From: Lytechinus pictus
Lineage: Eukaryota
NCBI RefSeq assembly: GCF_037042905.1
Contig: NC_087247.1
Span: 63,059,097 to 63,123,096 of the forward strand
DNA: 64,000 nucleotides
Direction: 5' to 3'
Below are positions 3,090 to 54,748 of this stretch, in pieces. Position 1 is the first letter of the stretch. The number at the start of each line of letters is the position of its first letter. The notes beneath the pieces were generated by a model. The model did no database searches and had not been told where the DNA came from. It saw only the letters and a program-made list of their open reading frames with translations. Made by a program: the position numbers and the translations under genes.

Positions 3090-3880
3090 AACAAGTGGAA
3101 TGCCTCTGGCCGTCTCACCTGCATCACGCGATTCAATATAGCAGCAGTGCTGATTTTGAAAACTACTATAACTCGCACAAGATGTTCAGTGATACTTGGT
3201 TACTCGTATTTCCACGTTTTATGAACTAGACCAATACACTTATAGAGATATGATGGCAATTCAACAAATACCCCCAACGTGGCCAAAGTTCTTTGACCTT
3301 ACATGACCTTTGACCTTGATCATGTGACCTGAAACTCGCACAGGATGTTCAGTGATACTTGATTACTCTTATGTCCAAGTTTTATGAACTAGACCAACAC
3401 ACTTTCAAATTTATGGCTGTAATTCAACAAATACCCCAATTTGGCCAAAGTTCATTGACCCTAAATGACCTTTGACCTTGATCATGTGACCTGAAACTTG
3501 CACAGGATGTTCAGTAATACTTGATTACTATTATGTCCAAGTTTCATGAATCAGATCCATAAACTTTCAAAGTTATGATGACATTTCAAAAACTTAACTT
3601 TAGGTTAAGATTTTGATGTTGATTCCCCCAACATGGTCTAAGTTCATTGACCCTAAATGACCTTTGACCTTGGTCATGTGACATGAAACTCAGGCAGGAT
3701 GTTCAGTAATACTTGATTAACCTTATGGCCAAGTTTCATCAACTAGGTCCATATACTTTCTAAGTTATGCTGTCATTTCAAAAACTTAACCTCAGGTTAA
3801 GATTTGGTGTTGACGCCGCCGCCGCCGTCGGAAAAGCGGCGCCTATAGTCTCACTCTGCTATGCAGGTGAGACAAAAAAC
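3090..3880 (+). mobile_element. TIR-bounded element carrying internal ~180-bp tandem units, copy 1 (about 4 units)
   Basis: Left end AACAAGTGGAATGCCTCTGGCCGTCTCACCTGCAT, right end ATGCAGGTGAGACAAAAA. The 13-bp core GTCTCACCTGCAT / ATGCAGGTGAGAC is an inverted repeat. Interior units recur as ...gatgttcagtgatacttgattac...ccataaactttcaaagttatgatgg...tgacctttgaccttggtcatgtgacctgaaactc. Confidence 0.7.
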
Positions 3881-4267
3881 TATCCCTTGTAAAAAATAAT
3901 GGTACGATGGGCCTTCAAAATAATTTGTACCTCACCTTTACTAATGGCTTGTGTGCTCATGTTTTATTAACGCTAATGTTAGATTGAGACAGTGAGAACA
4001 AAAACGCGAATAATTCAATATCGTCTATTACCGATCATTTGGGGGGGGGGGTATAATTTACAGCATTGGAATGATTTGAAATTAGTACAAAATACATAAA
4101 GGTATATTAATGAAAAAAGGCAATAGAAAAACGTTTATAATGATTCTAAAATTGGTGCAGAAAAAACCTTGACATAAACGTCTTAATTCTACAACAAAAA
4201 GAGCGAGGAGATACCCTGAGTAAAGTCCCGTTATAATTATTTCCAACAGAGGTTAGATTAGGGGAGA

Positions 4268-4441
4268 TACGCTTTTTATTTTTTTAAACAAACAAGTGCA
4301 CACCTAGTTACAAATAATGTGTCAAGCATTTCCATTTATCTGAATGAAGGATATAAGAGCAAAGGTGTCGTAGCCGCGGGGATCGATCCCGGACTCTCCA
4401 TGTATAGCCAGGCACCTTAGACCACTCGGCCACGGCACCTC
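4268..4441 (-). mobile_element. tRNA-derived SINE-like element (tRNA-related head with A-box/B-box, body, A-rich tail)
   Basis: Reverse complement of 4367-4441 reads GGAGGTGCCGTGGCCGAGTGGTCTAAGGTGCC...GTCCGGGATCGATCCCCGCGG. The A box is TGGCCGAGTGG, the B box-like is GGGATCGATCC, and spacing is about 40 nt. It does not fold into a clean cloverleaf, so it is not a bona fide tRNA. A-rich stretch at about 4270-4290. Confidence 0.35.
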
Positions 4442-4914
4442 CAACATGAATGCTGATTCGGATCGATATCAAGCACAACCAATATTTTATTCTAACACAG
4501 TAACAGATAAAAAATTAGAACATGCAATTTATGCCTTGTGCAACAGGTCTTTGTAAGATTGAATGATTAAATTTGGAGGAGAGAGAACCCCATAAAACTG
4601 AGAGAAAAACATAATAATAATAAATTCAAAATAAAAAAATAAAACGAAATAAAAGCCCGGTTGTGTTTTATATAGTTCTCTGTATTTTCTTGTCCGTTTT
4701 CTTAATTTTCCAATAGAACTTTTGACTCATTCCATTCTACCTTAATTTCCCGCTGTTGTTTGCTATTTTGTCATCTTTGTTGTTTATTTCCCTTTGTTAC
4801 TAATCACGCTAGCATAGTATTTGGAATGATTTGTTCTTTCTCACATGTTCTTCTTTCCTTCCTTTCCCGCTTTCCTTCCGTTTTCCCTTTGTATGTTTTT
4901 CTTACTTTTTCATA

Positions 4915-5175
4915 GGCGGATCCAGCTTTTGGCGAATGGGGGGGGGGGGGGCGTACTGCCGAGCGGCGCACATAAGCACTTCACCGGCGCCATAAAAGAA
5001 AATTTTGAAAAAGGGGTAAAGTCTGACCCTGTCAAATGCTCTTTTCTTTTCTTTCCTTTATTTTTATTTTTTAAGCGGCGCCTTTTCTTTCTTTTACTTT
5101 TTTTTTTTTTTTTTGAGCGGCGCCAAATATTAAGGGGGGGGTGTGCGCTCCCTCTGCCCCCCCCCTGGATCCGCC
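4915..5175. mobile_element. Short element with 11-bp TIR GGCGGATCCAG/CTGGATCCGCC and subterminal G14 and C9 runs
   Basis: ggcggatccagcttttggcgaatgggggggggggggg...ctctgccccccccctggatccgcc. Related copy at 8914-9126. Confidence 0.5.
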
Positions 5176-6239
5176 ATTGTTTGTTTTTTGAAGACGAATA
5201 ATTGTATGTATACGATGATAACAGTGCGAGAACTGATTAAAAAGCTACAATAATTCGTCTTTAAATGCAGTCTCGACTTTCGACATCGCACTGAACACGC
5301 CATTTCTGAGTTGATCGACACTTCACACGTTTTGAAATAACAAAAGCCCGGACGTTGCGAGTAACAAAACCTAGACTACGGTAGACCCGGCGGTCGCCCG
5401 ACGAGCGCCGGCGCGGTCTGTTTGTACTGTAAAGGTGATTACGGTACGAACCAATTGTTCTTTCGTATTAACAATTGATCATTAGCCTTTGTGTTACGGG
5501 GTCCTGGCCGCCCAAACTACGATGGATTGTGAACTTTAGATAATAATGATAATTTTCCAAAGTTACAAAGCGCTGATCTCCTTTGTTTGAACAGTTCTTG
5601 TGCTTGGCTTTCATTTCGCCATTATTACGTTATCACCAATCTTGACCAACCTTATAACTCAGATTTCGCATCCCGTTTGACGGTTAGTAACTCTTTGATA
5701 AATATAATTAAAAGACAATTATTAAAATCTCTTTGAAGCACGGGCGGGAATGAAAGGGAAGGGGGAGCCTAGGTTTTCATTTCTCTGCCACGGCCCGTTA
5801 ATTGCTTTTAATTTTATATAGATTAAAAATCATAATCACAAGCTCTTTGAAGCACTTTACTTCAGGGGCGCGGTGGAGCGAATTTGAAGGGGGGCACTGG
5901 GAAAAATGGTACCTTCTCGTTAAAAGGGCACTATATCTTTAAAAAAGAAAGACTAATCTATAGTAGTGTGGTGAGCAAAAATTTTTGAATTGGCTGCAGT
6001 ATCGAAGCTTCGAGCGAGCAAAAATGAACATTTTTGTAACGAAAATCAAATTTTGTGTTAGATTTTGACATAAATTATAGGCCTATTCAGAAATAATATC
6101 ATTATCTATCTTTCCTTCTCTTATATTTTCTTTCTTTTTTCTTGGTTGTGCTTTTTTTGGGGGGAGGCAAGAGTCCCCCCATCTGTACGCATCTACCCAC
6201 TCAACTGACTGATGAAACTTAATGCACGTATGATTATTC

Positions 6240-6535
6240 TTTTTTCCTTCAGAAGTATATTGCTTTATTTCTTGTTTCAAAGGGGCACTCGTTAACACCG
6301 TGACTAAACTGATGGTCCTTCCCAGGTGAAAGGGGCACAGAACATGTTGGTAAGGGGCATTTTCTTGGGTAAAAAGGGGCACTGATAAGAGAAAGGGCAC
6401 CGTATAAGAAATCAAAGGGGCCCCTTCTAATGGCATAAAACGGGTCCTTCTCGGGTGTGAAAGGCGCTGCACGTACAAAACACGTTCGTGATGGCATTTG
6501 GGGGTAAAAATTGGCATACGAAAAATGGCACTTGC
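6240..6535 (+). repeat. Periodic motif block: aaaggggcac(t) recurring about 12 times at 20-35-bp intervals
   Basis: caaaggggcactcg...gaaaggggcacagaa...taaggggcatttt...aaaaggggcactgat...aaagggcaccgt...aaaggggcccctt...gaaaggcgctgc... Confidence 0.6.
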
Positions 6536-6539
6536 TAAC

Positions 6540-7056
6540 ACACACAAAAGAGAAGATCAAACTGGGAAAGAACGATAAACCGAAACATAAAGAGGATAAA
6601 ACAAAGATAAGAACAAGAAGAAAAGGGGCATGGAGGAAAAGACGGTGGGTGTGGCAAGGAAGAATAAAGAACGGCTGTGATAAAAAAAATAGAAGATCGA
6701 ATGGGAGAACAAGGAATAATATAGAACAACAAAAAATAAGAGAGAAAAGGAAGAGGAATAAGACGTTGGGATGAGCAAGAGAGAGAAAGGAAAAGGAAAA
6801 GGGGAAGAAATGAGGTCAAAAAATTAGAGCAGATCGACGAGGTAGGAGAAAAAGAAATGGAGGGGGAGAAATAAGATTGTGGGGATGAGCAGGTGAGAGG
6901 AAGAAGGAAAACAGAAATATATTAAAGAGGAACGAAATAAAAAAGAAGAGGAATAAGGCGGTGGGTGAGGGAGGGAGAAAACAAAGAAGGAAAGAAGAAA
7001 GAAAACCGGCAAAAAGAGAGAAGATCGAAGGGTGAGAAGAACGAAAACAGAATTAT
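6540..7056 (+). repeat. Polypurine (A/G >95%) tract with internal ~230-bp periodicity. Similar tracts at 8393-8760, 29421-29530, 31030-31200, 33800-33930 and 38560-38600.
   Basis: Recurring string aaaagagaagatc(g/a)aa(a)ggg(t/a)(g/a)a(g/c)aagaacg(a/g)aaaaca at 6541, 7010 and 8475. The ORFs listed here on both strands (K/R/E-rich or F/L/S-rich) are low-complexity artefacts. Confidence 0.8.
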
Positions 7057-8392
7057 AACAAGTGGAACGCCTCTGGCAGTCTCGCCTGCATTACGCAATC
7101 TAATATAGCAGCAGTGCTAAATTTGAAAACTACTATAAAATAATCATTCACAAAAACATCATTCATATAATGACATAATACCACGTTCATTGACCATAAA
7201 TGACATTTGAACGGAGACTTAAGACTGTCAACTACACCCATGTCCACATTTCATTCACTCTATCCATAAACTTTCAAAGTCATGATGGCACTTCAACAAT
7301 TACCCCAACATGGCCTAAGTTTATTGACCTTAACTGACCTTTGACTTGGTTTTGTGACCTGAAACTCACAGGGGATGTTCAGTGATGCTTGATTACTCTT
7401 ATATCCCAAGTTTTATGAACTAGATCCATAAACTTTCACAGTTAGGATGGTAATTCAACAAATACCCCCAACACGGCCAAAGTTCAATGACCTTTGACCA
7501 TGGTCATGTGACCTGAAACTCGTACAGGATGTTCAGTGATACTTGATTACTCTTTTGTCCAAGTTTTATGAACTAGATCCATAAACTTTCAGAGCTAGGA
7601 TGGTAATTTAACATATACCCCCAACACGGCCAAAGTTCATTGACCTTAAATGACCATTGACCATGGTCATGTGACCTGAAACTCGCACAGGATATTCAGT
7701 GGTACTTGATTAACCTAATGTCTAAGATTCATGAACTAAATCCATAAATTTTCAAAGTTATGATGGTAATTCAACAAATACCCCCAACTTGGCCAAAGTT
7801 CATTGACCCTAAATGACCTTTGACCTTGGTCATGTGACCTGAAAATCAGGCAGGATGTTCACTAATACTTTATTAACCTTATGTCCAAGTTTCATGGACT
7901 AGATCCATAAATTTTCAAAGTTATGATAGTAATTCAACAAATACCCCCAACTTGACCAAAGTTCATTGACCCTAAATGACCTTTGACCTTGGTCACGTGA
8001 CCTGAAACTCGAGCAGGATGTTCACTAATACTTGATTAACCTTATGCCCAAGTTTCATGAACTAGGTCCATATACTTTCTAAGTTATGATGTCATTTCTA
8101 AAACTTAACCTTCGGTTAAGATTTTGAAAATAATTTTCCCAACATGGTCTAAGTTCATTGACCCTAAATGACCTTTGACCTTGGTCATGTGACCTGAAAT
8201 TCAGGCAGGATGTTCAGTAATACTTGATTAACCTTATGTCCAAGTTTCATGAACTAGGTCCATATACTTTCTAAGTTATGATGTCATTTAAAAAACTTAA
8301 CCTTAGGTTAAGATTTGATGTTGACGCCGCCGCCGCCGCCGTCGGAAAAGCGGCGCCTATAGTCTCGCTCTGCTATGCAGGCGGGGCAAAAA
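7057..8392 (+). mobile_element. Same TIR/satellite element family, copy 2 (about 7 internal units; right TIR mutated to ATGCAGGCGGGGC)
   Basis: Shares terminal and internal sequence with copy 1. Inserted inside a polypurine repetitive tract; the flanks on both sides read ...agagaagatcgaaagggnacaagaacgnaaaacaa.... Confidence 0.7.
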
Positions 8393-11500: not shown

Positions 11501-13049
11501 AATTCGATCAAGTCGAGCGTGCCAAGTATCAGAAAATTTCGAACTGACCGAAAAAAACACTCGCAGAAAACTCTTTTTTTATCACTTTCCCGTCATCAAA
11601 TTCACTCATTTTTTTCACAGAGTAATCATGAAACATGGAAGAATCAGAAAATGAAAAAAAAAAAAATCTTCAAAATTTCGAATTTTTTATTAGTTCGTCG
11701 AATTTCTAGGTATTTTGATTTGCGACTTCTCTCTCATTTCGGTATGGCCGATCACATATAATGTTCAAGAATCTACTTTTAAAAATATAGAGAAGCTGAA
11801 TTAAGATTGTGAATTGTATTAGCGCCACCAACGACCTTCCTTTTATTTCCGTGAAAGAGACATGCGAAGCAACTTTTCAGGCCGAGGTAAGCGATTTTGC
11901 TCTTTTTTATGTGGTTTTTATATAGAAAAATATTTGTAAAGTTGAAAGTAGAACGCTTTTCACCAGAAAAAGCCCTGGTGAGTAGCGGATTGAGTTTCGG
12001 CCAACATTATTTGCGTTATGAAACGATGTGAACCGACAACTCTAAAATCCATTGCGTAAAACTCTCACGCAATCTGCGTGAGTCTCACACAATTCATCCG
12101 ATTCTCACGCTCTCATGCTGATCATAGGAATTCTCACGCTGAACCCCGAAAATAGAGAAGAAAAAAGTTTATTAGCCTATATCGGATATTCAATAACATC
12201 ATAACCCGGCCAGGCAAAAGTTTCAAAGTTTTTAACCACACAAGCGCAAAGCTACACTATCAATGCAAATTGGTTTCGGTTTGCCGCGCAAAGACAAGAT
12301 ATTGAGTTGCTATTGGCTTACTGTATCCGGCGTGTGAGAGCTGGTGCATCAAAATTTTACTATGAAGCGGGGTTTTTGTGCGAGGCACAACGAGCGATCA
12401 AGTGTCACTGCAATGCCCTGCCAAAATTGTAAAAGCTCCCTACCGTGGAACGGAGGACACCCCCCTTCCACACAATCCCCCCCTCGGGCGCTCCGCGCCC
12501 TCGGTCACTTAGCTCCCTGACCCTCCCTCGCAATGTCTCACTCCAAACTCTTCTCAAAAGTTGGCAGCCCTGCGTTGCGTTGGTTGTGCGAGGTTAGTAT
12601 AGTATATTAGCTAGACCCACTCATGGGTTCAATGCATCTCGCGTGCGAAGGATTCATATGCACATGGTGCACGCGAATCTTTCACACCCTTTTTAATAAA
12701 ATAACTATGCCATTACAGATTACCTACAGTTTCTAATTGTGCTATGACACTTACCGAACCATATGGATCGTTTGTTGACTTCTCTTTGCTGTTTTTTAAA
12801 GAAAAAAAAAGCATTTTCTCGTGATCTTCACGTAGATGCCGCAGGATCATCGTGGATGTAAACTTTTGCCTAAAGAGGGCGCGCGATATTATTCACAAGA
12901 CGTTTGTTTACGGTTCTGTGTGTGTTCTGGAGCTTGTACTGCTAGCTGCATTTTAGACGCTCAGCATTATTTTCCTCTTTCTTTTTTTTTTTTTTTGGCT
13001 GTCAAGCGGTATACTCTATTATTGACGAGCTTTAAGACCTTTATCGCCC

Positions 13050-13400
13050 CCCCCCCTGACGAGCTTGAAGACCTTTTTTTTTTTTTTTTTTTTTTTTGCT
13101 TGTCAATTTATTTTCTGGTACGAAAACGTTTATTTTTGATTGAAGACCTTTTTTTTTTTGGTTTTTTGCTTGTCAATTTTTTTTTTCTGGTACGAAAATG
13201 TTTATTTTTGATTGAAGACCTTCTTTTTTTGTTTTTTTGCTTGTCAATTTTTTTTCTGGTACGAAAACGTTTATTTTTTATTGAAGACCTTTTTTTCTTG
13301 TTTTTTTGCTTGTCAATTTCTTTTCTGTTACGAAAACCTTTATTTTTGATTGAAGACCTTTTTTTTTTTTTTTTGCTTGTCAATTTTTTTGGCGGCCGAT
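13050..13400 (+). repeat. T-rich ~62-bp tandem repeat, about 5 units (...gcttgtcaattttttttctggtacgaaaacgtttatttttgattgaagaccttttttttt...), ending in the family terminus gCCCCCCCCCCtgtggaaaatcctaGGTACGCCACTGG at 13404-13437. Duplicate at 16180-16560; related copy at 19100-19515.
   Basis: Visible periodicity. Produces the F/L-rich + strand and K/R-rich - strand artefact ORFs 12836..13429, 13108..13383, 16166..16507 and 16290..16553. Confidence 0.8.
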
Positions 13401-14432
13401 TTTGCCCCCCCCCCTGTGGAAAATCCTAGGTACGCCACTGGTTTTATGCTTTAACAGAAAACATTTTGTTTTCATTGGAAAATCTCTTTAAGTTCAAGTG
13501 CACCCCAGAAAAAATGTTTGAATAAATAGAGAATTATGAAACAAGACTATCGCTGAAAACTTCATCAAAATCGGATGTAAAATAAGAAAGTTATGACATA
13601 TTAAAGTTTTGCTTATTTATCACAAAACAGTTACATGCACAATTCATTGATATCTAAATGAGAGAGTCAATAATGTCACTCACTATTTCACTTTTATTGT
13701 TCGAATTATACAATATTTCAATTCTCACGACTTTGACCAAATAGGACACTCTTTAAGTATATACATGAGATACAACCTGTTGATTTTTGGTACAATTTCC
13801 TTTTATGCGCCGACGACTTGAATCGAGAATGTTTGAGAGGAAAAATTCGCATTTCGATTGTTGTTTGCGTAATTTCCACCGCAGTATGAAGGATGACTAA
13901 GGACGGACCGAGCGAAGTAAACTGGTTGAGATTTGGAGGTAAGCGATAAAAACACTTTTATAAATAATTTAAAATTCCTTTTTAAAATGAACTTAAATCA
14001 TACGATCAAGATTAACAAAGTGGACAAATATTGAAAGGTTTGGCGCAGTTTAGTCCCTCACATTCGTGTGATGAATGAAAACGTCAAAATGCACTATGAA
14101 ATCACATGCGTTGTGCGAGGTTAGTATACTAACCTCGCATGTTGTGTGAGTGAGCTAGACCAAAAGCTTCAGTCTCTGTATTTTGGTTGTTCCGCTGAAC
14201 TGCATCGGCTCCACTCACCCATACATGGTGAATGGGGATGATAGTAAAATGTCAGAAATTGTTGAATAAATCCCCAGAAACGACGGTTATTCCTGTCTAA
14301 GACTAAGTATTACTATTTATTAGCATACGTACATACAAACCTCACAGTCACAAGTCACATTAACCCAGGGAGCTCCGGCCCGCGCAGCGGGCCGGAGCCC
14401 AGGAGCTTACCATGTATTTTACCATACTCACG

Positions 14433-15305: not shown

Positions 15306-18300
15306 ATCGGATATTCAATAACATCATAACCCGGCCAGGCAAAAGTTTCAAAGTTTTTAACCACACAAGCGCAAAGCTACACTATCAATGCAAATTGGTT
15401 TCGGTTTGCCGCGCAAAGACAAGATATTGAGTTGCTATTGGCTTACTGTATCCGGCGTGTGAGAGCTGGTGCATCAAAATTTTACTATGAAGCGGGGTTT
15501 TTGTGCGAGGCACAACGAGCGATCAAGTGTCACTGCAATGCCCTGCCAAAATTGTAAAAGCTCCCTACCGTGGAACGGAGGACACCCCCCTTCCACACAA
15601 TCCCCCCCTCGGGCGCTCCGCGCCCTCGGTCACTTAGCTCCCTGACCCTCCCTCGCAATGTCTCACTCCAAACTCTTCTCAAAAGTTGGCAGCCCTGCGT
15701 TGCGTTGGTTGTGCGAGGTTAGTATAGTATATTAGCTAGACCCACTCATGGGTTCAATGCATCTCGCGTGCGAAGGATTCATATGCACATGGTGCACGCG
15801 AATCTTTCACACCCTTTTTAATAAAATAACTATGCCATTACAGATTACCTACAGTTTCTAATTGTGCTATGACACTTACCGAACCATATGGATCGTTTGT
15901 TGACTTCTCTTTGCTGTTTTTTAAAGAAAAAAAAAGCATTTTCTCGTGATCTTCACGTAGATGCCGCAGGATCATCGTGGATGTAAACTTTTGCCTAAAG
16001 AGGGCGCGCGATATTATTCACAAGACGTTTGTTTACGGTTCTGTGTGTGTTCTGGAGCTTGTACTGCTAGCTGCATTTTAGACGCTCAGCATTATTTTCC
16101 TCTTTCTTTTTTTTTTTTTTTGGCTGTCAAGCGGTATACTCTATTATTGACGAGCTTTAAGACCTTTATCGCCCCCCCCCCTGACGAGCTTGAAGACCTT
16201 TTTTTTTTTTTTTTTTTTTTTTGCTTGTCAATTTATTTTCTGGTACGAAAACGTTTATTTTTGATTGAAGACCTTTTTTTTTTGGTTTTTTGCTTGTCAA
16301 TTTTTTTTTTCTGGTACGAAAATGTTTATTTTTGATTGAAGACCTTCTTTTTTTGTTTTTTTGCTTGTCAATTTTTTTTCTGGTACGAAAACGTTTATTT
16401 TTTATTGAAGACCTTTTTTTCTTGTTTTTTTGCTTGTCAATTTCTTTTCTGTTACGAAAACCTTTATTTTTGATTGAAGACCTTTTTTTTTTTTTTTTGC
16501 TTGTCAATTTTTTTGGCGGCCGATTTTGCCCCCCCCCCTGTGGAAAATCCTAGGTACGCCACTGGTTTTATGCTTTAACAGAAAACATTTTGTTTTCATT
16601 GGAAAATCTCTTTAAGTTCAAGTGCACCCCAGAAAAAATGTTTGAATAAATAGAGAATTATGAAACAAGACTATCGCTGAAAACTTCATCAAAATCGGAT
16701 GTAAAATAAGAAAGTTATGACATATTAAAGTTTTGCTTATTTATCACAAAACAGTTACATGCACAATTCATTGATATCTAAATGAGAGAGTCAATAATGT
16801 CACTCACTATTTCACTTTTATTGTTCGAATTATACAATATTTCAATTCTCACGACTTTGACCAAATAGGACACTCTTTAAGTATATACATGAGATACAAC
16901 CTGTTGATTTTTGGTACAATTTCCTTTTATGCGCCGACGACTTGAATCGAGAATGTTTGAGAGGAAAAATTCGCATTTCGATTGTTGTTTGCGTAATTTC
17001 CACCGCAGTATGAAGGATGACTAAGGACGGACCGAGCGAAGTAAACTGGTTGAGATTTGGAGGTAAGCGATAAAAACACTTTTATAAATAATTTAAAATT
17101 CCTTTTTAAAATGAACTTAAATCATACGATCAAGATTAACAAAGTGGACAAATATTGAAAGGTTTGGCGCAGTTTAGTCCCTCACATTCGTGTGATGAAT
17201 GAAAACGTCAAAATGCACTATGAAATCACATGCGTTGTGCGAGGTTAGTATACTAACCTCGCATGTTGTGTGAGTGAGCTAGACCAAAAGCTTCAGTCTC
17301 TGTATTTTGGTTGTTCCGCTGAACTGCATCGGCTCCACTCACCCATACATGGTGAATGGGGATGATAGTAAAATGTCAGAAATTGTTGAATAAATCCCCA
17401 GAAACGACGGTTATTCCTGTCTAAGACTAAGTATTACTATTTATTAGCATACGTACATACAAACCTCACAGTCACAAGTCACATTAACCCAGGGAGCTCC
17501 GGCCCGCGCAGCGGGCCGGAGCCCAGGAGCTTACCATGTATTTTACCATACTCACGGGACTAGGGTGATTTATGGTCTAAATATTTCTTTAAATGAATTG
17601 TGAAAACAGAAATTATGCACTTACCACGATTATATGGATGAAGGTCTAACGAGTGGCAGTTTCCTGACATCTGGGCACAGACTGGAACCTCAAAAAACGA
17701 AAAGTTCTCTCCTTCTACCCCCGTCTCGATCGGCCATTTTTGTTATGAATTGTAACAAAATGGCCGATCGAGACTGGGGTAGAAGGAGAGAACTTGTCGT
17801 TTTTTTGAGGTTCCAGTTTGTGCCCAGATGTCAGGAAACTGCCACTCGTTAGACCTTCATCCATATAATCGTGGTAAGTGCATAATTTCTGTTTTCACAA
17901 TTCATTTGGAGAAATATTTAGACCATAAATCACCCTAGTCCCTTGCCCCGGGGACCTCGACACGTCTTAAGACAGTGTCGAGGTCCTGAATGCTACCATT
18001 CATTATCACCGGAGTACAAAACTTCGCGATGTTTGGCATTAGAAAACCGATGATCATAATGAATTAAAAATCTAATGAGTAATATCAATCTTACCTAAAC
18101 AAACTGTTCCTAAATCAGCTTACCTTTGAAATAAGAATAATGAATATAATTCCATGAAATCCTTCAAAAGAGCATCAATTTTCGGACTTTTGTTCCAATC
18201 GCGAGATCGCCATGTTTGAAGAACGTGAAAAAAAGTTTCTGCGCATGCGCATATGAATATTTATAAGTCTAAGATGACATCACTGTCTTTACAACACAGT

Positions 18301-23716: not shown

Positions 23717-24594
23717 ATGTATATATATATGCATATAGTATTCCCCAATTCACAGCTAAATCAACATACAGTACAGTGGTGCCAAACATACCTTCATCAG
23801 TTTATATTCCACTTTTCTTCTCTTTTTCAATCTCAAAGTATAATAGATAATGATTTCTTCATTTTGGACTTTGTATGATATAGGCATTTATTGTTTTCTC
23901 ACACTTGTATGGAATCCGGAATGTGCAGCTTATATATCTTTTTTTCTTTCTGGGACGTCTTTGTCTGTTAGTGTTACTGTCGGCTGACTTTAAAGGGGAA
24001 TCCAGCCTTGGCCATAAAATGTTGTGTTGGAAAGGAGAAAAATAAATTAAACAGAATGGCGAAAGTTTGAAAGAAATCGGACAAGCAATAAGAAAATAAT
24101 GGCTGCTTTAAAATTGAGATCACTAAATAGTATGTAGATTTCAAATTGGCAACTGGGTAAGTAAATTATGACAAGGGGCAAGGACAACTTTCCCATAAGC
24201 CATATGTATTTCATTATCAGGGATTTGTGGTTTTCTCCTAAGTACCCATTCCCCTGGGGCAGTAATCTAATTATAATCCAGGTAGTATATTGTTTTATGT
24301 CCTCATGAAAGAAAAATATAATTTGAAATAAAACTTTTGGGGAAAATGACATTTTAGCCGTAATATGTATTGGAGTACATGGAAGAGTAGTCCTTGCCTT
24401 ACATCACTATGACATCCCATATGCGGCCAATTTGAAGTCTCCATGGGTATAGTGATTGCCAATATTTACAACTTTTAAAAATTCATAACTTTCTTGTTGT
24501 TTGTCCAATATTGTTCAAACTTTCACCTATCAACTTGTCTGATTTTTCTTTTTCTTATAAAAACAAGTTTTTATTTGGGTTGGATTCCCTAAAT

Positions 24595-33050: not shown

Positions 33051-34444
33051 ATTTTTCTGTTTTTGCATAAGCTATATGTTTCAAGGGTTTCATTTTCCTT
33101 TTATAAACATGATTAGAAATTTATCGATCACGATCCAATACATTTCATTTCTGGAATGATATAAAAAAAAGAAATAATTTCGACAATAAAGTGCAATCGC
33201 CCGATAGGAAATATCAGTAGTAGCAAGATCCCAACTGTTTTATTGGGCACCCCCTGGGTAACCTTTCCCATCTTCAGTGCCACTTCCAGACCTACACATC
33301 CAAACGTGTATGGGGGTGGGCTGCAAAATGCAGGGCAACAGGGACTGCGAGGTGCCCAAATATCCTCGTGTATTGGTAATTCTATGACCGAATGTATAAT
33401 TTCTGCAAGTTTCATATCATGTAAAAAGGCTAAATAATTATTGGAAAAAAAAATGTTCGCTCGCTCGAAAATTAAAAACTGTGAAGTTGATATTTGGGCA
33501 ATGATTATCAGCCCCCCTTGAAAAATTATGCCTATACGTCCATGCCTACTACCCCCCCCCTTTGCTCATTCTTGCCCCCCTGACGAAATATGCTAGGTAC
33601 GCCACTGGTTTTCAAGCTTTGCTTTTGCAATTACGACCCTTGCAACCATCCTATTTATTGTGTAACAGAAAATACCACTTAATTTTTTTTTCATTTATGT
33701 ATGATATATTTGATGATTTATGTACAAAAGGTATTGTTCACTATCTTGATGTCGAAATTCAGATATGTATTTTCTTGTCCAGAATTTTGTTATGAAAAAT
33801 GTTGCAAAAACCAATAAATGAAATGAAAAGAAAGCTTGACTAGAAGGGAAAAAAGAAATACAATGAAAGAGGAAGAAAGATAATAAGAAGTAATAAGAGG
33901 AAGGAGAGAGAAATAAAGAGGAAAAGAAAACATGTGGAAATTTTGTTAATTTGAAGCTAACACTGCAGTGCTAAGCGTGAACAAAATTACTTGGTCCAAA
34001 ACACATCACATACACTCACAATACCATATCACATATTCATCCACCACTACAGGATGCATATCACTGAGACACTTTGGGGTGGGGGTGGAGCAAAACACAA
34101 TTTGAGTTTGTCAACAATTAAAAACACAGAACTAACACAATGAAAACATATATTGTATTTACACACCTGAAACAGTGATTCAACATCATGTTTCATTTAT
34201 TCATTTAATTCTTCATCATCTTGAGAGTTTAACATAATTTATCTAATAATCACTTGCATCTTCATGAAACACAAGATAATATTTTAGCTCAGTTTTCACA
34301 CTTATTTCTCCCTTCTGTAATAAATTTAAGGTACCGGTATTCCAAAAAAGTTTGTAAAATGTAAGTACATTCGGTTACATATCTATTAGGGCAGAATATA
34401 TGTTTAGCTTTATTACTCTAATATGAGGGAATCTACCTTACATA

Positions 34445-35241
34445 ACAAGTGATAGCACCTCTGGCAGTCTCACCTACATTACACAATTCAATATAGTACC
34501 AGTGCTGACTTTGAAAACTATGAAATAATTATTTACAAAAAACACCATTCATATAATGATATAATACTATGCTCATTGACCCTAAATGACATTTGACCTT
34601 AATCATGTAACCTAAAACTTGTCAGTGATACTAGATTACCCCTATGTCTACAATTCATAAACTATATCCATAAACTTTGAAAGTTGTGACAGCAATTTAA
34701 TAATTACCACCAACTTTGACATTGGTCATGTGACCTTAAACTCGCACGGGATGTTCAGTGATACTTGATTATTTACTCATATATCCAAGTTTTATGAACA
34801 AGACCAATAAACTTTCAAAGTTATGATGGTAATTCAACATATACCCCCAACTTTGCCAAAGTTCATTGACCTTAAATGACCTTGATCATGTGACCTTAAA
34901 CTCGCACGGGATGTTCAGTGATACTTTACTCATATATCTAAGTTTCATGAATCAGATCCATAAACTTTCAAAGTTATGATGGTAATTCAACAGATACCCC
35001 CAACTTGGCCAAAGTTAATTGACCCTAAATGACCTTTGACCTTGGTCATGTGACTTGAAACTCAGGCAGGATGTTCAGTAATACTTGATAAACCTTATGT
35101 CCAAGTGTCATGAACTAGGTCCACATACATTCTAAGTAATGATGTCATTGTAAAAACTTAACCTTTGGTTAAGATTTGGTGTTGACGCCGTCGGAAAAGC
35201 GGCGCCCATAGTCTCACTCTGCTATGCAGGTGAGACAAAAA
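34445..35241 (+). mobile_element. Same TIR/satellite element family, copy 3 (diverged, about 4 units)
   Basis: Left AACAAGTGATAGCACCTCTGGCAGTCTCACCTACAT, right ATGCAGGTGAGACAAAAAC. Confidence 0.7.
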
Positions 35242-45089: not shown

Positions 45090-45870
45090 CTAAAATTCCC
45101 TTTTCTTTTCACTTTTCCCTCCCTCCCTCCCTCCCTCCCTGAAATGATCTGAAATATCAGAAATAAGTATTCCTGAACGTATAGAGCAAGTGTCGTTAGT
45201 TATAATGTTGTCTATTACAGAAACAGAATGCGGAGTGACACGAGTTGGATATTTTATAAGAGGAATCATAGAGTGAGGCATGAGTAAATCAACAAAATCA
45301 GTTACACTCTGTACTTAACCAACATTCAGTAAATTAATGTTAAAGTCACCAATTATATATAAAACATTTTTTCCTCTATTTACAATTCAAACAAATTTAT
45401 GAGAAATGAAAAAAAATGATCTGTTTGGTAACCGGGAGGCCTATAAATAACACCAAGCAATACAGAATATTTATGATTACAAATTTCAATAAAAATACTT
45501 TCGGTGAAATCATTATTTACATCAAGATCACATCGACGTTTAAAACTAATGTCGGATCGAATAAAAATACCAACACCTCCACCACGTCTAGTCTTCCTGC
45601 TATTATTAATGAATTCATAATTATCAAGATTATACATAGGTAGAGTTGACTGATCATTAATCCATGTTTCTGATATACCAATTACAGACGGTTGGATTGA
45701 AAGAGAACTAATAAATAAAGACAAATTATCAAAGTTACGACATAAGCTTCTACAGTTGACATGAATGCAAGATAACTTGCTAGCAACTGTTTCAGAAAAG
45801 TAAGTATTTGACAAAAAATTATTGAATTCAGAAGGAGTGTAATAAGCTTCTGCATGTAGAGGACCGTGGT
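45090..45870 (-). pseudogene. Truncated, frameshifted non-LTR retrotransposon (LINE, CR1/L2/jockey-like) ORF2 apurinic-endonuclease domain
   Basis: Minus-strand ORF 45380..46063 contains LSCIHVNCRSL...IGISETW...RKTRRGGGVGIFIRSD...LLGVIYRPP. The second frame 45090..45281 continues with IDNIITNDT...SGILISDISDHF. These are the hallmark EN motifs (GGGVAIY, RPP, SDH). The frameshift and lack of a downstream RT indicate a dead copy. Confidence 0.7.
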
Positions 45871-49298: not shown

Positions 49299-52200
49299 GT
49301 AAGTACTGAAAGAAAAAATCATTTAGAATGTAGCACGATTTAAATGTACATATTTTAAAAATATTTCAAAGTTCAAATTCAGTATGTTTCATTATTTCAA
49401 TTATAGCCATCAATAAGAAATCCTGAACAAAATAACAATATACCAAGTGGAAATGATGTCATAATCTCATAGTGTCCTCTGTCAGAGGATATAGGAAATA
49501 TGCATAAATAGAGTTGTCACAGATGCGCCAGCTGCACATCACCAACGCATGTCGAATGGACCCAACCTACCCCAAATTACCATCAAAGAAATTTGTCATT
49601 TGTGACAATGAACAACAAATCACTGACACCTTCGCCAGAATCAACAGGATTTTGGAGACTGGTTTTTGTCTCACCTGCATAGCAGAGTGAGACTATAGGC
49701 GCCGCTTTTCCGACGGCGGCGGCGTCAACACCAAATCTCAACCGAAGTTTTTGAATGACAGCATAACTTAGAAAGTATATGGACCTAGTTCATGAAACTT
49801 GGCCATAAGGTTAATCAAGTATTACTGAACATCCTGCCTGAGTTTCATGTCACATGACTGAGGTCAAAGGTTATTTAGGGTCAATGAACTTAGACCATGT
49901 TGGGGGAATCAACATCAAAATCTTAACCTAAGGTTAAGTTTTTGAAATGTCATCATAACTTAGAAAATATATGGACCTAGTTCATGAAACTTGAACATAA
50001 GATTAATCAAGTATCACTGAACATCCTGCATGAGTTTCACGTCACATGATCAAGGTCAAAGGTCATTTAGGGTCAATGAACTTTGGCAGAATGGGGGTAT
50101 CTGTTGAATTACCATCATAACTTTGAAAGTTTATGGATCTGACTCATGAAACTTGGACATAAGAGTAATCAAGTATCACTGAACATCCTGTTTGGAGTTT
50201 TAGGTCACATGTTCAAGGTCAAAGGTCATGTAAGATCAATGAACTTTGGCCATGTTGGGGGTATTTGTTGAATTACCATCATATCTCTGTGTATTGGTCT
50301 AGTTCATAAAACGTGGACATAAGAGTAACCAAGTATCACTGAACATCTTGTGCGAGTTATTAGTCCAGTCAATCTAGCCAGAATAGGGGGGTAACCCACA
50401 ACTAATTGCAACACAAGATATTCCACTGAAATGCTTTCCAGGAAGGTCCCCTAAACAACATACTAAAAGTCCCAAGAAATCCAAGCAGTGGAAATTTATG
50501 AAATTTGCATATTATGCAAATTAGCCATGAAAAATTAGAAAAAGAAGGGAAATAATCCAAAGATTACAAATTAAATGTCCAAAACAATTTAATTTGAATG
50601 GAAATTCATGATAAATAACTGAATTCAATGTTTTTAATCAAAAGTGCAAAAATTTCTACCTCATTTGCATATTATGCAAATATGCATCCTTATATGAAAA
50701 AAATGTCAAGATATTGTGAATTTTCTCATATAGACTGCTTGAAAAAATTTCATTAATGTTGACATTAATATGCCAATCATATCACTAAGCATGAGAATTC
50801 ATCCCAATGCCTGAAAATTAATTTGCATATTATGCAAATTAGCCATAAAAAATAGAAAATGAGGAAATTAATCCAAAGATTACAAATTAAATGTCAACAG
50901 CAAGTAATTAAAACTTCATGATGAATAAAAAAGTTCAATGTCTTTATTTAAAAAGTTAGCAAATGTGCCTCATTTGCATATTATGCAAATAAGTATCCTT
51001 ATATGGAAAATGTAAAGAAATTTTGATTTTTTATCACATTGACTGCAGTGAAAACATTTCAGTTTTTCAAATTAATATGCTGCTATCACTAAGCATTCAA
51101 ATCTATCCTAATATGATTTATATTCAAGGAAAAATACTGGAAATATGTTCTTCGCTTCCTAAGCGTTAGTCTGACAAGATGATGGGATTGGCAAGAACAA
51201 AGCACAGTATTTGATTGGTGTGAAGTTTGTTAGAGTTGACAACCATTTCTTATGTGGATGGGAACGACTTAGACTTTCTTCAAATTTCACCGCATAAACA
51301 TGATAAAGTGAGGCCAGGAAAAGCAAACTTATGGCAGGTAAGATCTGATGAGTAGTCTCATTAAGAAGTGCAGCAGAGATTCCGTCTGGCCTAGTAGCTT
51401 CATGCAGGTTGTTTTCTTTAACATTTTCTTCAGTAGTCTGGCTACACCTGCTTGACTAAACAATATGTTATCTGGCCATATCTGGGTCAGGACTGGGTCC
51501 CAGGACTTCAGCGTCATCATCATCATGATCAGTGGTGAATACTAAGACTAAAAATATTTGCCTTCCTTTAATAATGATATTCCAATGTAGTCATAGGTAT
51601 TGATATTAAGGGCTTCCAACATGCTAATTGTTACAGCCTGGATCATTGTCAATCCGGTCAACAAATTATAGGCTTGTCTATAAACCCTCTTATGGTCCTC
51701 TTTAGTGCATTGTAGCAATTCTAAGCTTTACCTTACTGATGCTTTTGGAGCATTAAAATGTGCAAGCCTTCCTAGCCTTTCTCTGAAACTCTTGACATCT
51801 TCCGACACAACTTATGTTCATTGTCTCATTGAGGCAACTTGTGTCGGAAGAAGACATGGTTAACGGTGTGTTCCTGTTAAAGTCCTCTTGATTGGCATTC
51901 AGTCTCCTACGTCGACTTGTCGGATTTCAGTACAGAGAGTTGTATGATTGTCCAAAGTACATCTGCATGACACTATTAAAGTCAGCATTCCTCCAGAAGA
52001 ACATCCTTAGTTGTACCATAAAATGTTTATTCCTCTGGACAACCTCACAGTATACCCATGAGTAGCACATTGTGGCAAATAAATCCTGGAAGTGGTACAC
52101 ACTGTCTAATCAATGTTGGATGGTATTTGATGGTGATGTTAAGGGTGTTCCATTATGTTGTGTCCTCTTGTTGGAAAGGCAATAATCTGGCTTAGTCCTC

Positions 52201-52573
52201 CATCTGGTTTGTTCATTGTCTCACTGAGGAATTTCTGTTTACCATAAATATCAGGAAATTAATATTATTATTTGCATACGACTTACTTAGAAACTATAGC
52301 TTTAATATTTGGAGATGGTTGCCATAGGAGATTTATCAAAGAGGAAAGAACAGAAAATGGATGCTTCATCATGAAGCAGCAATATCAGCAAGAACGTCTA
52401 ATCACGATTCCTGTATCTGAGAAAGATGCCTATAATGCACTTTAAGCCTTCATCATGAATTTATGAATGGCTTTCATGTCGCTCGTATAGGCAAATGCCC
52501 ATTGTTACTCTTATTAAGCATGCCCAGAGATCTTGTGATCCAAGCAAGTACTCTTATTCACCACCAAGACAAG

Positions 52574-52607
52574 TGATGATGATGGTGATGATGATGATGA
52601 TGATGGG
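52574..52607. repeat. (GAT)n microsatellite. Other microsatellites: (CCCT)6 at 45117-45140, (TA)n at 15287-15307 and 60850-60872, (GT)7 at 18587-18602, (AAT)n at 58389-58406
   Basis: Direct reading. Confidence 0.95.
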
Positions 52608-52717
52608 TTCTTGTAAAGCGCCGGTATCCGCCTCAGCTGGGCGCTCATGGCGCTTGCTCAAAAATAGGAAATATCTCACAAATTTCAATGTCTTCAAACA
52701 GTGATTAGGATCATCAT

Positions 52718-53068
52718 TCAGTTCAAGTACTGTCCTAGTAATGCTACAATTGAGTTATTCTTGTCTTGGGATAATGTTGGAGTGGGGAACAGAAAGGCCT
52801 TCAGGTAAGACTCAAAAGTTGATTGGGTCTCTGCTCTCCTGATAAATTGGGGAAGGCTATTCCACAGCTTTGGTCCAGAGATGTAGAAGGCTCTGTCACC
52901 CCAGGTTGTTTGAGATTCCCTCAGCAATGCTTGAGCTGCTGATCTGAGACTGCGTGTTGGTCTATGCTGAGATAAGAGCTCTGAGATGTAGGGTGGAGAT
53001 TTATCGTTAAGCGCTTTGAATACAAGGACCCCAAGTTTATAAGCTAATTGGTGTGCTACAAGGACCAA
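52718..53068 (-). other. TE-derived ORF inside the nested element; carries a retroposon-tail peptide motif (...GDRAFYISGPKLWNSLPQFIRRAETQSTFESYLKAFLF...)
   Basis: Resembles the recurrent deuterostome retroposon-derived C-terminal peptide type (AF...AP.LWN.LP....R.A.T...FKS.LKT.LF) seen at the ends of many TE-derived predicted proteins. Recognised from memory; family not assignable. Confidence 0.35.
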
Positions 53069-54748
53069 ATATTCATATTAGAGGAAAGTATCACTTTTGT
53101 GTTTCCTTGAATATTTATAACATGTCGGATGCTTATTTGCATAATATGTAAATTACACTTCAGATATTAAGCTGATTATTAATGTATTAGCCATTCTTAG
53201 TGCTCACATCATATTGATCTAGATTGAAATGTTTTCATAACTGTTTTTGTGAGAAAAATCAAAATTTCTAGATTTTTTCCATATAAAGATGCTCATAATA
53301 TGCAAATGAGGTAGAGTTATTCACGATTTTTTATTTAAAATAAATAAATTTGTAAAACTTATAATGGGCTTCAGTTCAATTCGTATTGATTTCTGCACTT
53401 GATTTCCAATATTTGGATTATTTTCCTTATTTGTAATTTATTATGGCTAATTTGCATAATATGCAAATTTTGTGATTTTCCATATGCTTGTATATTTAAG
53501 GACTTTTAATATGGTGTTTGGGAAACCTTCCTGTAAGGTATTGCCATATTCCAATTTCAATAGATAATCTACTTGCAATTTTTGAGGGATGTATCACCAG
53601 TGTGTTTTCTTGAATATTTATAACATGTTAGATACTTTTATTTGCATAATATGCAAATTACACTATAGACACTAAGCTAAATACATTTAGCTGAATACAA
53701 ATGTATTCAAAGTCCTTAGTGATTGCAGCATGTAAATTCCAACATTAATGAAATTTTCAAGCAGATAATGAGGGAAAAATCACAATACCTTGACATTTTT
53801 CAATATAAGGATGCTTATTTGCATATTATGCAAATGAGGTAGATTTTTTTTGCACTTTTGACAAAAAACATTGAATACAGTTATTTATCATGAATTTTCG
53901 CTCAAATTGAATTGTTTTGGACACTTGATTTGTAATCTCTGGGCTATTTTCCTTATTTTTCTAACTTTTTATGGCTAATTTGCATAATATGCAAATTTCA
54001 TAAATTTCCACCACTTGGATTTCTTGGGACTTTTAGTACGTTGTTTAGGGGACCTTCCTTGAAATCATTGCAGTGGAATATCTCGTGTTGCAATTAGTGG
54101 TGGGTCAAACCCTATATTGACTGGACTACATGTATATAGTAGTTTTCAAAGTCAGCACTGCTGCTATATTGAATCGCGTGATGCAGGTGAGACCGCCAGA
54201 GGCATTCCACTTGTTTGAGATTTTAAAGCACCAGATGTGCAGCACAAACAAATTTTTCCATACTGCATGTATTTTCATTTAGTGGCATCATCAATAGTTG
54301 CCTATTTGGGATGGCCATTGTTGCTTAATTATTCAAATTGGCTGCAAGACCAGCAGAATTTGTGCTTTCCAAATTGAATTATTTGAAAGGGCTAAATTAG
54401 GTTTTATACAATTATAGAATTGCTAATTGGCCCCTTACATAATAGGGACGAACAAGGAGGATGTCTAGCATTCACCTACACTTGCTTTAGCAATAAACTA
54501 GAGGTAAATATTTCTAGGTTGCCATGTGCATTTTTTTTTTTTTTTATTATAAAAAAATTGACTCCTTTGAATGCAATATATTGTTCTGTGAGAATTCACA
54601 TATTTAAAAGAATTGAACATTTAAAAGATTTTTATTTCTGGGTCACTTTTGATTCCGAGAAAGATTAAATATACTGTACCTTGGACATGAAATGGATTAA
54701 AGATTAGGGTTTCGTTAATGGTTTCTTTCACATCTTTCATTACTACAG

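What the first reader, a model, noticed from the sequence alone, without database searches (positions are those of the whole stretch)
3090..8392. MITE-like family whose interior is a variable-length satellite (4 copies, 0.8-1.3 kb before nesting)
All four copies share the termini AACAAGTGGAAYGCCTCTGGCNGTCTCACCTGCAT ... ATGCAGGTGAGACAAAAA, with a 13-bp perfect inverted core. Between them lie 4 to 7 tandem ~180-bp units. The family is a vehicle for spreading a satellite, as with the pearl/satellite-MITE elements described in bivalves. Copy 2 sits inside a repetitive polypurine tract; copy 4 sits inside a gene intron.
Basis: seen in the sequence. Interest (0 to 1): 0.55.

Follow-up and report, generated by a model that had tools for sequence, protein, structure and literature searches.

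The report
Rolling-circle transposon carrying a mini-satellite
The four repeats are real copies of a small non-coding mobile element that carries a short satellite-like array, but its anatomy is that of an already described type (pearl/DTC84/HINE, non-autonomous Helentrons) and not a cut-and-paste MITE, so it is an ordinary new member of a known kind.

Summary
The window has four copies with the stated termini: 3090-3878, 7057-8392, 34444-35241, and 49663-54215, the last split by a 3.8-kb nested transposon. Every monomer in the window lies inside one of these copies. No terminus occurs on its own.

Arrays hold about 3.6-6.6 units of two ordered types: 192 bp next to a (GCC)n microsatellite, then 163 bp. 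Copies 1 and 4 are 94% identical and collinear, so the array moves as part of the element.

Read on the opposite strand, the anatomy matches published HINEs (non-autonomous Helentrons):
- a T-run;
- a 13-bp subterminal inverted repeat folded into a hairpin with an adjacent inverted repeat;
- a microsatellite, then the tandem repeats;
- a second subterminal repeat followed by a short palindrome;
- no target-site duplication, with T-rich insertion sites.

The expected partner is therefore a Rep/helicase Helentron, not a transposase with matching TIRs.

Three further copies, with 1 to 6.6 units, lie in marine metagenome contigs. The host is an unidentified marine animal. A second, unrelated HINE lies at 59891-60967. 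This is a new member of a known kind, and interest is low.

The parts
3090..3878 (-). Copy 1 (789 bp). It has about 3.6 units.
   Evidence: Both termini match exactly. Sequence read. It is 94.4% identical and collinear with copy 4.
3090..3170 (-). Copy 1 right flank (3' module). It ends in CACTTGTT. It holds the short palindrome GCCAGAGGC (3102-3110) and the 3' subTIR ATGCAGGTGAGAC (3112-3124).
   Evidence: Alignment of the four RFs. The fold gives no thermodynamic support for the 3-bp stem (z about 0).
3170..3808 (-). Copy 1 central array. In + strand order: a partial 163-bp unit (93 nt), one 163-bp unit, then two 192-bp units. The 192-bp units carry an extra CTTAACC-NNN-GGTTAAG hairpin segment.
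   Evidence: TRF periods 162 and 192. Blastn segmentation. Monomer alignment.
3815..3826 (-). Microsatellite, (GCC)4 on the + strand and (CGG)n in HINE polarity. Length is 5 repeats in c2 (8326-8340), 1 in c3 and 3 in c4.
   Evidence: LF alignment.
3848..3878 (-). Copy 1 left flank core. It holds the T5 run (3874-3878) and the 5' subTIR GTCTCACCTGCAT (3861-3873). The adjacent IR (3848-3859) pairs with the subTIR as the hairpin GTCTCACCTGC-ATA-GCAGaGTGAGAC.
   Evidence: DNA fold -20 kcal/mol, z = -4.0, with 0 of 200 shuffles as stable. The same hairpin forms in c3 (z -4.6) and c4 (z -4.9). It is decayed in c2.
7057..8392 (-). Copy 2 (1336 bp): RF 7057-7137, degenerate spacer 7138-7249, array 7250-8320, then (GCC)5 and LF. 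The array is about 6.3 units (a partial unit, four short units, two long units). Termini are eroded (GTCTCGCC, GGCGGGGC). It sits in a polypurine tract, which is pyrimidine-rich in HINE polarity.
   Evidence: Flank purine content 0.83 and 0.74.
34444..35241 (-). Copy 3 (798 bp). The RF is diverged and a spacer is present. It has about 3.7 units, only one of them 192 bp, and a (GCC)1 microsatellite.
49663..50360 (+). Copy 4, left part: LF, (CGG)3, two 192-bp units, one 163-bp unit and a partial unit. It lies in intron 2 of COMMD4 on the same strand as the gene.
   Evidence: Exon mapping.
54135..54215 (+). Copy 4, right flank. A nested insertion separates it from the rest of the copy.
50361..54134 (.). 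Nested 3774-bp long-TIR or foldback-type transposon that interrupts copy 4 exactly at the RF/array junction. It is not part of the family.
   Evidence: Inverted arms 50387-50745 and 53754-54112, about 90% complementary. Removing it restores collinearity with copy 1.

Best explanation
The family is a non-autonomous Helentron (HINE) of the pearl/DTC84 type.

1. a T5 run;
2. the 13-bp 5' subTIR GTCTCACCTGCAT, paired with an adjacent inverted repeat into a hairpin;
3. a GC-rich segment ending in a variable (CGG)1-5 microsatellite;
4. one or two 192-bp units;
5. 0 to about 4.6 units of 163 bp;
6. an optional spacer;
7. the 3' subTIR ATGCAGGTGAGAC;
8. the short palindrome GCCAGAGGC;
9. the terminal sequence CACTTGTT.

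Inferred mechanism. The element encodes nothing. A Rep/helicase(-endonuclease) protein from an autonomous Helentron elsewhere in the genome would mobilise it in trans by rolling-circle (peel-and-paste) transposition. That protein would recognise the subterminal repeats and hairpins. Insertion would go into T-rich sites, probably between two Ts, without duplicating the target.

Shown. The tandem array is internal cargo and is copied with the element.

Inferred. Unit number then changes by unequal exchange or replication slippage, mostly among the 163-bp units. The 163-bp unit is a 192-bp unit without its roughly 30-bp hairpin segment.
For: - Sharp boundaries. Four complete copies lie in unrelated flanks and in both orientations.
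- No orphans. No monomer or terminus occurs outside the copies.
- The array travels with the element. c1 and c4 are 94.4% identical and collinear across termini and array. Monomers at the same position in different copies are 88-95% identical, against 83% for neighbours in one array.
- Further copies. Three more lie in marine metagenome contigs with the same modules: L002 (at least 4.7 units plus LF), L003 (6.6 units plus RF) and L004:654-1020 (complete, with a single 192-bp unit).
- No TSD of 2-10 bp. Only T-runs sit at the ends. c1 is in a T-run and c2 is in a pyrimidine tract in this polarity.
- The 5' subTIR-IR hairpin is significant, with z of -4 to -4.9 in three of four copies.
- Every module has a counterpart in the published definitions: HINE/DINE-1 (PMC4067079), Cg_HINE (PMC7492417) and DTC84/pearl (PMC3879986). 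The DTC84/pearl match covers the ordered repeat variants, the truncated first repeat, the constant junction with the microsatellite and the two spacer types.
- A second, unrelated element in the same window has the same layout with a clearer 6-bp 3' stem-loop and a (GTCY)n microsatellite. Helentron-type elements have therefore been active in this genome.
Against: - No autonomous Helentron or Rep/helicase ORF is in the window. The longest ORF is 227 aa and belongs to a LINE endonuclease.
- No empty site was available, so insertion between T and T without duplication is consistent with the data but unproven. The same junctions could be read as a 1-2-nt A/AA duplication, as the older pearl and DTC84 papers did.
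- The 3' palindrome is only a 3-bp stem with a 3-nt loop. It has no thermodynamic signal (z 0.1-1.1).
- The 3' subTIR is 21 nt from the end, against 38-60 nt in the mite HINEs.
- The microsatellite is trinucleotide, not the usual tetranucleotide GTCY/ACGG.
- No sequence-level comparison with Repbase or the pearl elements was possible.
Confidence: 0.8

Rival explanations
1. It is a true MITE. That would be a deletion derivative of a cut-and-paste (DDE transposase) DNA transposon that inserts with an AA (or A) target-site duplication, as pearl and DTC84 were first interpreted.
For: A 13-bp inverted repeat lies near both ends. A or AA is present at both junctions in all copies. The size is small and there is no coding capacity. 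The DTC84 paper proposed an AA TSD (PMC3879986).
Against: The inverted repeats are asymmetric and subterminal. The A/T residues are part of fixed T-runs of the element: T5 at one end in 6 of 6 readable copies (TTCTT in L002), and GTT at the other. No longer duplication exists. The hairpin, microsatellite and 3' palindrome layout is the HINE signature. The literature has re-assigned this whole group to Helentrons (PMC4067079; PMC7492417).
Confidence: 0.12
2. Only the termini plus a single unit are mobile, and each array then grew independently in place after insertion. The variable length would say nothing about the transport of a satellite.
For: A complete copy with one unit exists (L004:654-1020). 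Unit number differs among copies.
Against: c1 and c4 share the same 3.6-unit array, unit by unit, at 94% identity. Units at the same position in different copies are more alike than neighbours in one array. The order of 192-bp then 163-bp units is the same in all seven copies. Arrays were therefore already present when the element moved. Local gain or loss adds to this and does not replace it.
Confidence: 0.05
3. The copies are dispersed fragments of an ordinary satellite, or segmental duplications, and not a mobile element.
For: The tandem monomers have the typical satellite length of 163 bp.
Against: Identical non-repetitive modules bound every array, and similarity ends to the base in unrelated flanks at seven sites and in both orientations. 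No flanking similarity exists between the sites.
Confidence: 0.02

Closest known systems
pearl family (Crassostrea virginica, Anadara, sea urchin) and DTC84 (Donax trunculus): 'tandem repeat-containing MITE-like elements'
   Same:
- Ordered repeat variants with fixed positions.
- A constant junction with the microsatellite.
- Two spacer types.
Source: PMC3879986.
   Different: The microsatellite is (GCC)n, not ACGG-type. The repeat variants differ by a 30-bp hairpin segment. No sequence similarity could be tested. The host is not shown to be a bivalve.
Cg_HINE elements of Crassostrea gigas (non-autonomous Helentrons carrying satDNA-like repeats)
   Same: - LF holds a 5' subTIR, a complementary IR and a microsatellite.
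- The central arrays average 2.3-5 units per cluster (138-181 bp monomers).
- RF holds a 3' subTIR followed by a palindrome.
- There is no TSD, and insertion sites are T-rich or TT.
- Insertions are found in introns and in other repeats.
- Some elements carry two consecutive related repeat types.
Source: PMC7492417.
   Different: Here the variable spacer lies between the array and RF. In Cg_HINE it lies between the microsatellite and the array. The monomer 11-12-mers tested are absent from the C. gigas satellitome supplement, apart from one unrelated hit. The 3' palindrome here is very short.
DINE-1 / HINE of Drosophila, mites and mosquitoes (Thomas et al. 2014)
   Same: 13-bp subTIRs, an IR whose 5' half lies inside the 5' subTIR, a microsatellite, central repeats, a 3' stem-loop, T-runs at the ends and a TT preference (PMC4067079).
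   Different: There is no conserved DINE-1 core block. The 3' subTIR is closer to the end, at 21 nt. The partner is not identified.
Canonical Helitrons
   Same: No TSD, hairpin-dependent ends, and rolling-circle logic inferred for both.
   Different: Canonical Helitrons have 5'-TC and CTRR-3' ends, a single 16-20-nt 3' hairpin, no inverted repeats, and insert between A and T (PMC4067079). None of these features is seen here.

Membership tests
HINE (non-autonomous Helentron) | 12-15-bp subterminal inverted repeats, with the 5' one a few nt from the end after a short T-run | tested here: met
   T5 followed by GTCTCACCTGCAT, and ATGCAGGTGAGAC 21 nt from the other end. The pair is perfect in c1 and c4 and has 1-2 mismatches in c3, c2 and L004.
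HINE (non-autonomous Helentron) | An inverted repeat next to the 5' subTIR that forms a hairpin (DINE-1 / Cg_HINE type) | tested here: met
   GTCTCACCTGC-ATA-GCAGaGTGAGAC. The DNA fold gives z of -4.0, -4.6 and -4.9 in c1, c3 and c4. The hairpin is decayed in c2.
HINE (non-autonomous Helentron) | A short palindrome or stem-loop downstream of the 3' subTIR | tested here: inconclusive
   GCCAGAGGC (3-bp stem, 3-nt loop) lies 1 nt after the subTIR in 5 of 6 readable copies; c3 has GCCAGAGGT. It is not more stable than shuffles (z 0.1-1.1).
HINE (non-autonomous Helentron) | A microsatellite after the 5' module, followed by central tandem repeats in a fixed orientation | tested here: met
   (CGG)1-5 followed by arrays in the same orientation in all seven copies.
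HINE (non-autonomous Helentron) | No target-site duplication; insertion in T-rich sites or between T and T | tested here: inconclusive
   No 2-10-bp TSD was found. The ends are T-runs, c1 lies in a T-run and c2 in a pyrimidine tract. No empty site was found in the window, so the TT site is not demonstrated.
HINE (non-autonomous Helentron) | An autonomous Helentron partner (Rep/helicase with or without AP endonuclease) sharing the termini | not testable with these tools
   No such ORF is in the 64-kb window. No eukaryotic genome collection was available. Scans of metagenome, viral and prokaryote collections gave 0 hits.
MITE (cut-and-paste class II derivative) | Terminal inverted repeats at the very ends, flanked by a fixed-length TSD | tested here: not met
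   The IRs start 5 nt and 21 nt inside the ends. There is no TSD beyond a shared A/T.
pearl / DTC84-type tandem-repeat-containing elements | Modular structure of L flank, core repeats (about 160 bp, up to about 6), microsatellite and R flank. The IR is subterminal in L and near-terminal in R, with AA at the ends. | tested here: met
   compared with PMC3879986.
pearl / DTC84-type tandem-repeat-containing elements | Sequence similarity of the core repeats to bivalve satellites (Cg170/HindIII, BIV160) | not testable with these tools
   The consensus sequences are not held as text. The k-mer look-ups in supplements of PMC7492417 (subTIR motifs) and of PMC8268682, PMC12818792 and PMC5139131 (monomer motifs) were negative.
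Classical satellite DNA | Long homogeneous arrays (hundreds of units), typically heterochromatic | tested here: not met
   In this window the arrays have at most 6.6 units and always lie inside an element. Whether long arrays exist elsewhere in the genome cannot be tested.

The most novel reading that the evidence does not exclude
The central repeats may not be neutral cargo. Each unit carries a dense cluster of nuclear-receptor-type half-sites: AGGTCAcaTGACCaAGGTCAaAGGTCAtttaGGGTCA, which reads as DR1 plus DR4 plus an inverted pair. This cluster is the most conserved block of the monomer. The exact DR1 13-mer AGGTCAAAGGTCA is also the only sequence shared with the repeats of the unrelated second HINE family in the window, and it has the same polarity relative to the transposon ends. 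If the box is maintained, for Rep or host-factor binding or as a hormone-response element, these Helentrons would be spreading arrays of receptor binding sites into introns. Helitron-borne HSF-1 sites in Caenorhabditis do something similar (PMC6927752). The single-unit copy and the 192-bp unit that includes a flank-proximal hairpin would also bear on whether such satellites arise from the element's own sequence.
Probability: 0.08. Interest if true: 0.5.

Novelty: new member of a known kind. Interest (0 to 1): 0.2.

Why it matters
The family adds one more case, from an unidentified marine animal, of rolling-circle Helentron derivatives carrying short satellite-like arrays into euchromatin and introns. 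This is the process proposed to seed satellite DNAs in oysters, clams and Drosophila. The family shows clearly that the array is inherited unit by unit through transposition, and it includes a one-unit copy. A genome-wide census in this host could therefore help with the open question of whether such repeats are captured or arise from the element itself. Nothing here changes the current picture. For annotation, the practical point is that these copies should be labelled Helitron/Helentron non-autonomous and not MITE or satellite.

Tried and rejected
- Empty-site search. Chimeric flanks of all four copies matched only themselves in the window. The flanks of copy 2 are merely diverged polypurine repeats of each other.
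- TSD search with sliding boundaries found only A-runs.
- Literature search for the subTIR and for monomer k-mers gave no relevant paper. Supplements of the Cg_HINE, C. gigas satellitome, Limnoperna and BMC Genomics 2016 papers gave no match, apart from one unrelated DR1-like string. Supplementary Table S2 of PMC7492417, which holds the subTIR sequences, is illegible in the held copy.
- Public-collection scans for the LF and monomer motifs gave 0 hits in JGI metagenomes, IMG/VR and prokaryote genomes.
- Host identification failed.
  - The COMMD4 exon has only one close relative: 85% amino-acid identity by BLASTP and 92% by phmmer, on a Logan contig from SRR16156417. That run is not mentioned in any held paper.
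  - The other COMMD4 relatives looked up are 50%-cluster representatives from birds, turtles and a monitor lizard (Varanus) and are uninformative.
  - Rfam and tRNA scans of the window were empty.
- SINE reading rejected. The A-run is fixed at 5 nt, no TSD is present, and ARAGORN finds no tRNA-like structure anywhere in the window; pol III boxes were not searched for.
- The CACCTGCAT match at 9993 is a chance hit with no neighbouring family sequence.
- Homology between the family-1 and family-2 monomers is limited to the shared 13-mer.
- L004 could not be loaded into the script environment, so its overall similarity to the window was not measured.
Full report
**1. Observation**

- The 35-nt 5' motif matches at 3090, 7057 and 54215(-) with at most 1 mismatch.
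- The 23-nt 3' motif matches at 3856, 8370, 35219 and 49685(-).
- An adjacent 23-mer matches at the same four places.
- The fourth 5' end is diverged and starts at 34444.

The copies are c1 3090-3878 (789 bp), c2 7057-8392 (1336 bp), c3 34444-35241 (798 bp) and c4 49663-54215 on the minus strand (4553 bp). c4 holds a nested 3774-bp insertion at 50361-54134 and is 776 bp without it.

TRF finds arrays of period 162-163 and 192 inside the copies. Blastn with one monomer finds units only inside the four copies. Blastn with the flanks finds exactly four left and four right modules, always paired. A ninth-position match of CACCTGCAT at 9993 is a chance hit.

Two side claims also hold. The flanks of copy 2 are 83% and 74% purine. 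Copy 4 lies between exon 2 (48468-48533) and exon 3 (54694-54867) of a plus-strand COMMD4 gene.

Three corrections are needed. Units are 163 bp and 192 bp, not about 180 bp. Arrays hold about 3.6 to 6.6 units. The given coordinates cover only copies 1 and 2 and the unrelated 3.2 kb between them.

**2. Anatomy**

Alignment of the ends of all copies shows sharp boundaries in unrelated flanks.
- T5;
- GTCTCACCTGCAT;
- AGCAGAGTGAGAC;
- TATAGGCGCCGCTTTTCCGA;
- (CGG)1-5;
- one or two 192-bp units;
- 163-bp units, the last one truncated;
- in c2 and c3, a 60-110-bp degenerate spacer;
- TATAGTAGTTTTCAAAGTCAGCACTGCTGCTATATTGAATCGCGTG;
- ATGCAGGTGAGAC;
- one variable base (N);
- GCCAGAGGC;
- ATTCCACTTGTT.

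The first 13-mer and its neighbour form an 11-bp hairpin. It is far more stable than shuffles in c1, c3 and c4 (z -4.0 to -4.9) and is eroded in c2. The short palindrome after the 3' repeat is conserved but has no thermodynamic signal.

The 192-bp unit equals the 163-bp unit plus about 30 bp that contain the hairpin CTTAACC-NNN-GGTTAAG. This long type always lies next to the microsatellite.

No 2-10-bp target-site duplication exists.

The element has no ORF longer than 64 aa lying wholly within a copy.

**3. The array moves with the element**

c1 and c4 are 46 kb apart, in opposite orientations and in unrelated flanks. They are 94.4% identical over their whole length, unit for unit.

In the monomer identity matrix, units at corresponding positions of different copies are 88-95% identical. 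For example, the microsatellite-proximal unit of c1 is 95% identical to that of c4 and 92% identical to that of c2. Adjacent units within c1 are only 83% identical.

The array is therefore inherited through transposition. Differences in length lie mainly in the number of 163-bp units.

**4. Copies outside the window**

Short ORFs that run through the two end modules were used as protein queries. They returned three ENA metagenome contigs.
- L002 (Tara Oceans, PRJEB4352) has at least 4.7 units, two of them 192 bp, followed by (GCC)4 and the left module.
- L003 (Tara) starts in the microsatellite. It has two long units and 4.6 short units, the right module and then unrelated flank.
- L004:654-1020 is a complete copy with both modules, the spacer and a single 192-bp unit.

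Seven copies therefore show 1 to 6.6 units with the same module order.

Two subfamilies are visible. In c1, c4 and L003 the truncated unit abuts the right module. In c2, c3 and L004 a spacer intervenes.

**5. What it is**

The layout matches the published definitions point by point.
- Thomas et al. 2014 (PMC4067079) describe HINEs and DINE-1, the non-autonomous Helentrons. Their features are 12-15-bp subTIRs, a 5' subTIR a few bases from the end, an IR whose 5' half lies within that subTIR, a microsatellite, central repeats, a 3' stem-loop, T-runs of variable length at the ends, a TT preference and no TSD.
- Vojvoda Zeljko et al. 2020 (PMC7492417) describe 11 Cg_HINE elements of the Pacific oyster with these modules around satellite-like arrays. 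The 13 repeat clusters average 2.3-5 units per array, with monomers of 138-181 bp. The paper states that Pearl, once called a MITE, has been re-categorised as a non-autonomous Helentron.
- Satovic and Plohl 2013 (PMC3879986) describe DTC84. It shares further details with this family: ordered repeat variants in fixed positions, a truncated first repeat, a constant junction with the microsatellite, two kinds of spacer, and AA at both ends.

The family is therefore best read as a HINE of the pearl/DTC84 type. The mechanism is inferred and not shown here. It would be mobilisation in trans by a Helentron Rep/helicase(-endonuclease) through rolling-circle transposition into T-rich sites.

Support from context: the same window holds a second, unrelated element with the same layout at 59891-60967.
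- T5 followed by an ATGCCCCC...GGGGGCAT hairpin (z -3.1).
- A (GTCY)n microsatellite.
- A 139-bp array of 5.6 units.
- CGGGGCAT followed by a 6-bp stem-loop, GTGTCC-TTT-GGACAC.

**6. Rivals**

A cut-and-paste MITE with an A/AA duplication cannot be excluded formally, because no empty site was found. It fits the asymmetric subterminal repeats and the hairpin and microsatellite layout poorly.

Independent in-place growth of each array is contradicted. Dispersed satellite fragments or segmental duplications are contradicted by the base-sharp boundaries.

**7. Limits**

- The host is unknown. The COMMD4 exon has one close relative only, on a Logan contig from SRR16156417 (87% nucleotide identity), and the element family occurs in Tara Oceans metagenomes. 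Together these point to a marine animal that is not among annotated genomes. A bivalve origin is not shown.
- No autonomous partner could be sought.
- No comparison with Repbase, pearl or BIV160 sequences was possible. k-mer look-ups in the available supplements were negative.
- Scans of JGI metagenomes, IMG/VR and prokaryote genomes gave nothing.

**8. Verdict**

This is a new member of a well-described kind, and interest is low.

One point is worth a further look. The conserved cluster of AGGTCA-type half-sites in every unit includes an exact DR1 13-mer. That 13-mer occurs 11 times in the window, always inside HINE repeats, and is shared in the same polarity by the two unrelated families. 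This may be chance or common descent of a box. Helitron-borne transcription-factor sites have a precedent (PMC6927752).

Noticed in passing
window 59891-60967 (+): A second, unrelated HINE-like element. It has T5 followed by an ATGCCCCCGC...GGGGGCAT hairpin (z -3.1). A (GTCY)n microsatellite follows at about 59940-59985, then a 139-bp array of 5.6 units (59988-60755) and a (TA)n run. The 3' end has CGGGGCAT, the 6-bp stem-loop GTGTCC-TTT-GGACAC (60946-60960) and the terminal GTCAAAT.
   Followed up: partly
window, all family-1 monomers (e.g. 3304-3316, 7814-7826, 50053-50065), and 60232-60244 and 60641-60653: The exact DR1-type motif AGGTCAAAGGTCA occurs 11 times, with 0 expected, and only inside HINE repeats of two unrelated families, in the same polarity. 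In family 1 it sits in a cluster of five AGGTCA-like half-sites, which is the most conserved block of the unit (about 94% column identity, against 80-90% for most of the remaining blocks).
   Followed up: partly
window 24589-29129 and 35390-36390: A 203-bp satellite occurs as 21 units (24757-29118) and as 3.7 units on the opposite strand (35393-36205). Both arrays share a flank of about 185 bp that contains a variable (CCACTTA)n microsatellite, and both end abruptly on the other side. This is probably another repeat-carrying dispersed element. The short array lies 150 bp from HINE copy 3.
   Followed up: partly
window 50361-54134: A 3.8-kb long-TIR or foldback-like transposon is nested in copy 4. 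Its arms are about 360 bp, contain repeated ATTTGCATAATATGCAAAT palindromes and are about 90% complementary. It carries a LINE 3' ORF fragment (52718-53068) and a (TGA)n run.
   Followed up: partly
window 47517-57639 (+): A COMMD4 gene. Exons lie at about 47517-47597, 48468-48533, 54694-54867, 56847-56936 and 57448-57639 (COMM domain, Pfam E 1.5e-14). The closest relative of the COMM-domain exon is 85% identical by BLASTP (92% by phmmer), on a Logan contig from SRR16156417, so the host species is absent from annotated protein sets.
   Followed up: partly
window 12836-13429 and 15961-16514: A duplicated segment about 3.1 kb apart. Each copy ends in a 69-bp T-rich tandem repeat of 4.5 units (13080-13390 and 16205-16514).
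   Followed up: no
window 45380-46063 (-): A 227-aa ORF with a weak endonuclease/exonuclease/phosphatase domain match (E 1.3e-4). It is probably a LINE APE fragment.
   Followed up: no
L004:240-300 and 1150-1205; window 4040-4052 and 60985-61000: T(n)G(n) or G(n) homopolymer junctions such as TTTTTTGGGGGGGG recur in the window and in the metagenome contig L004. They may be termini of another repeat family or a sequencing or assembly feature.
   Followed up: no
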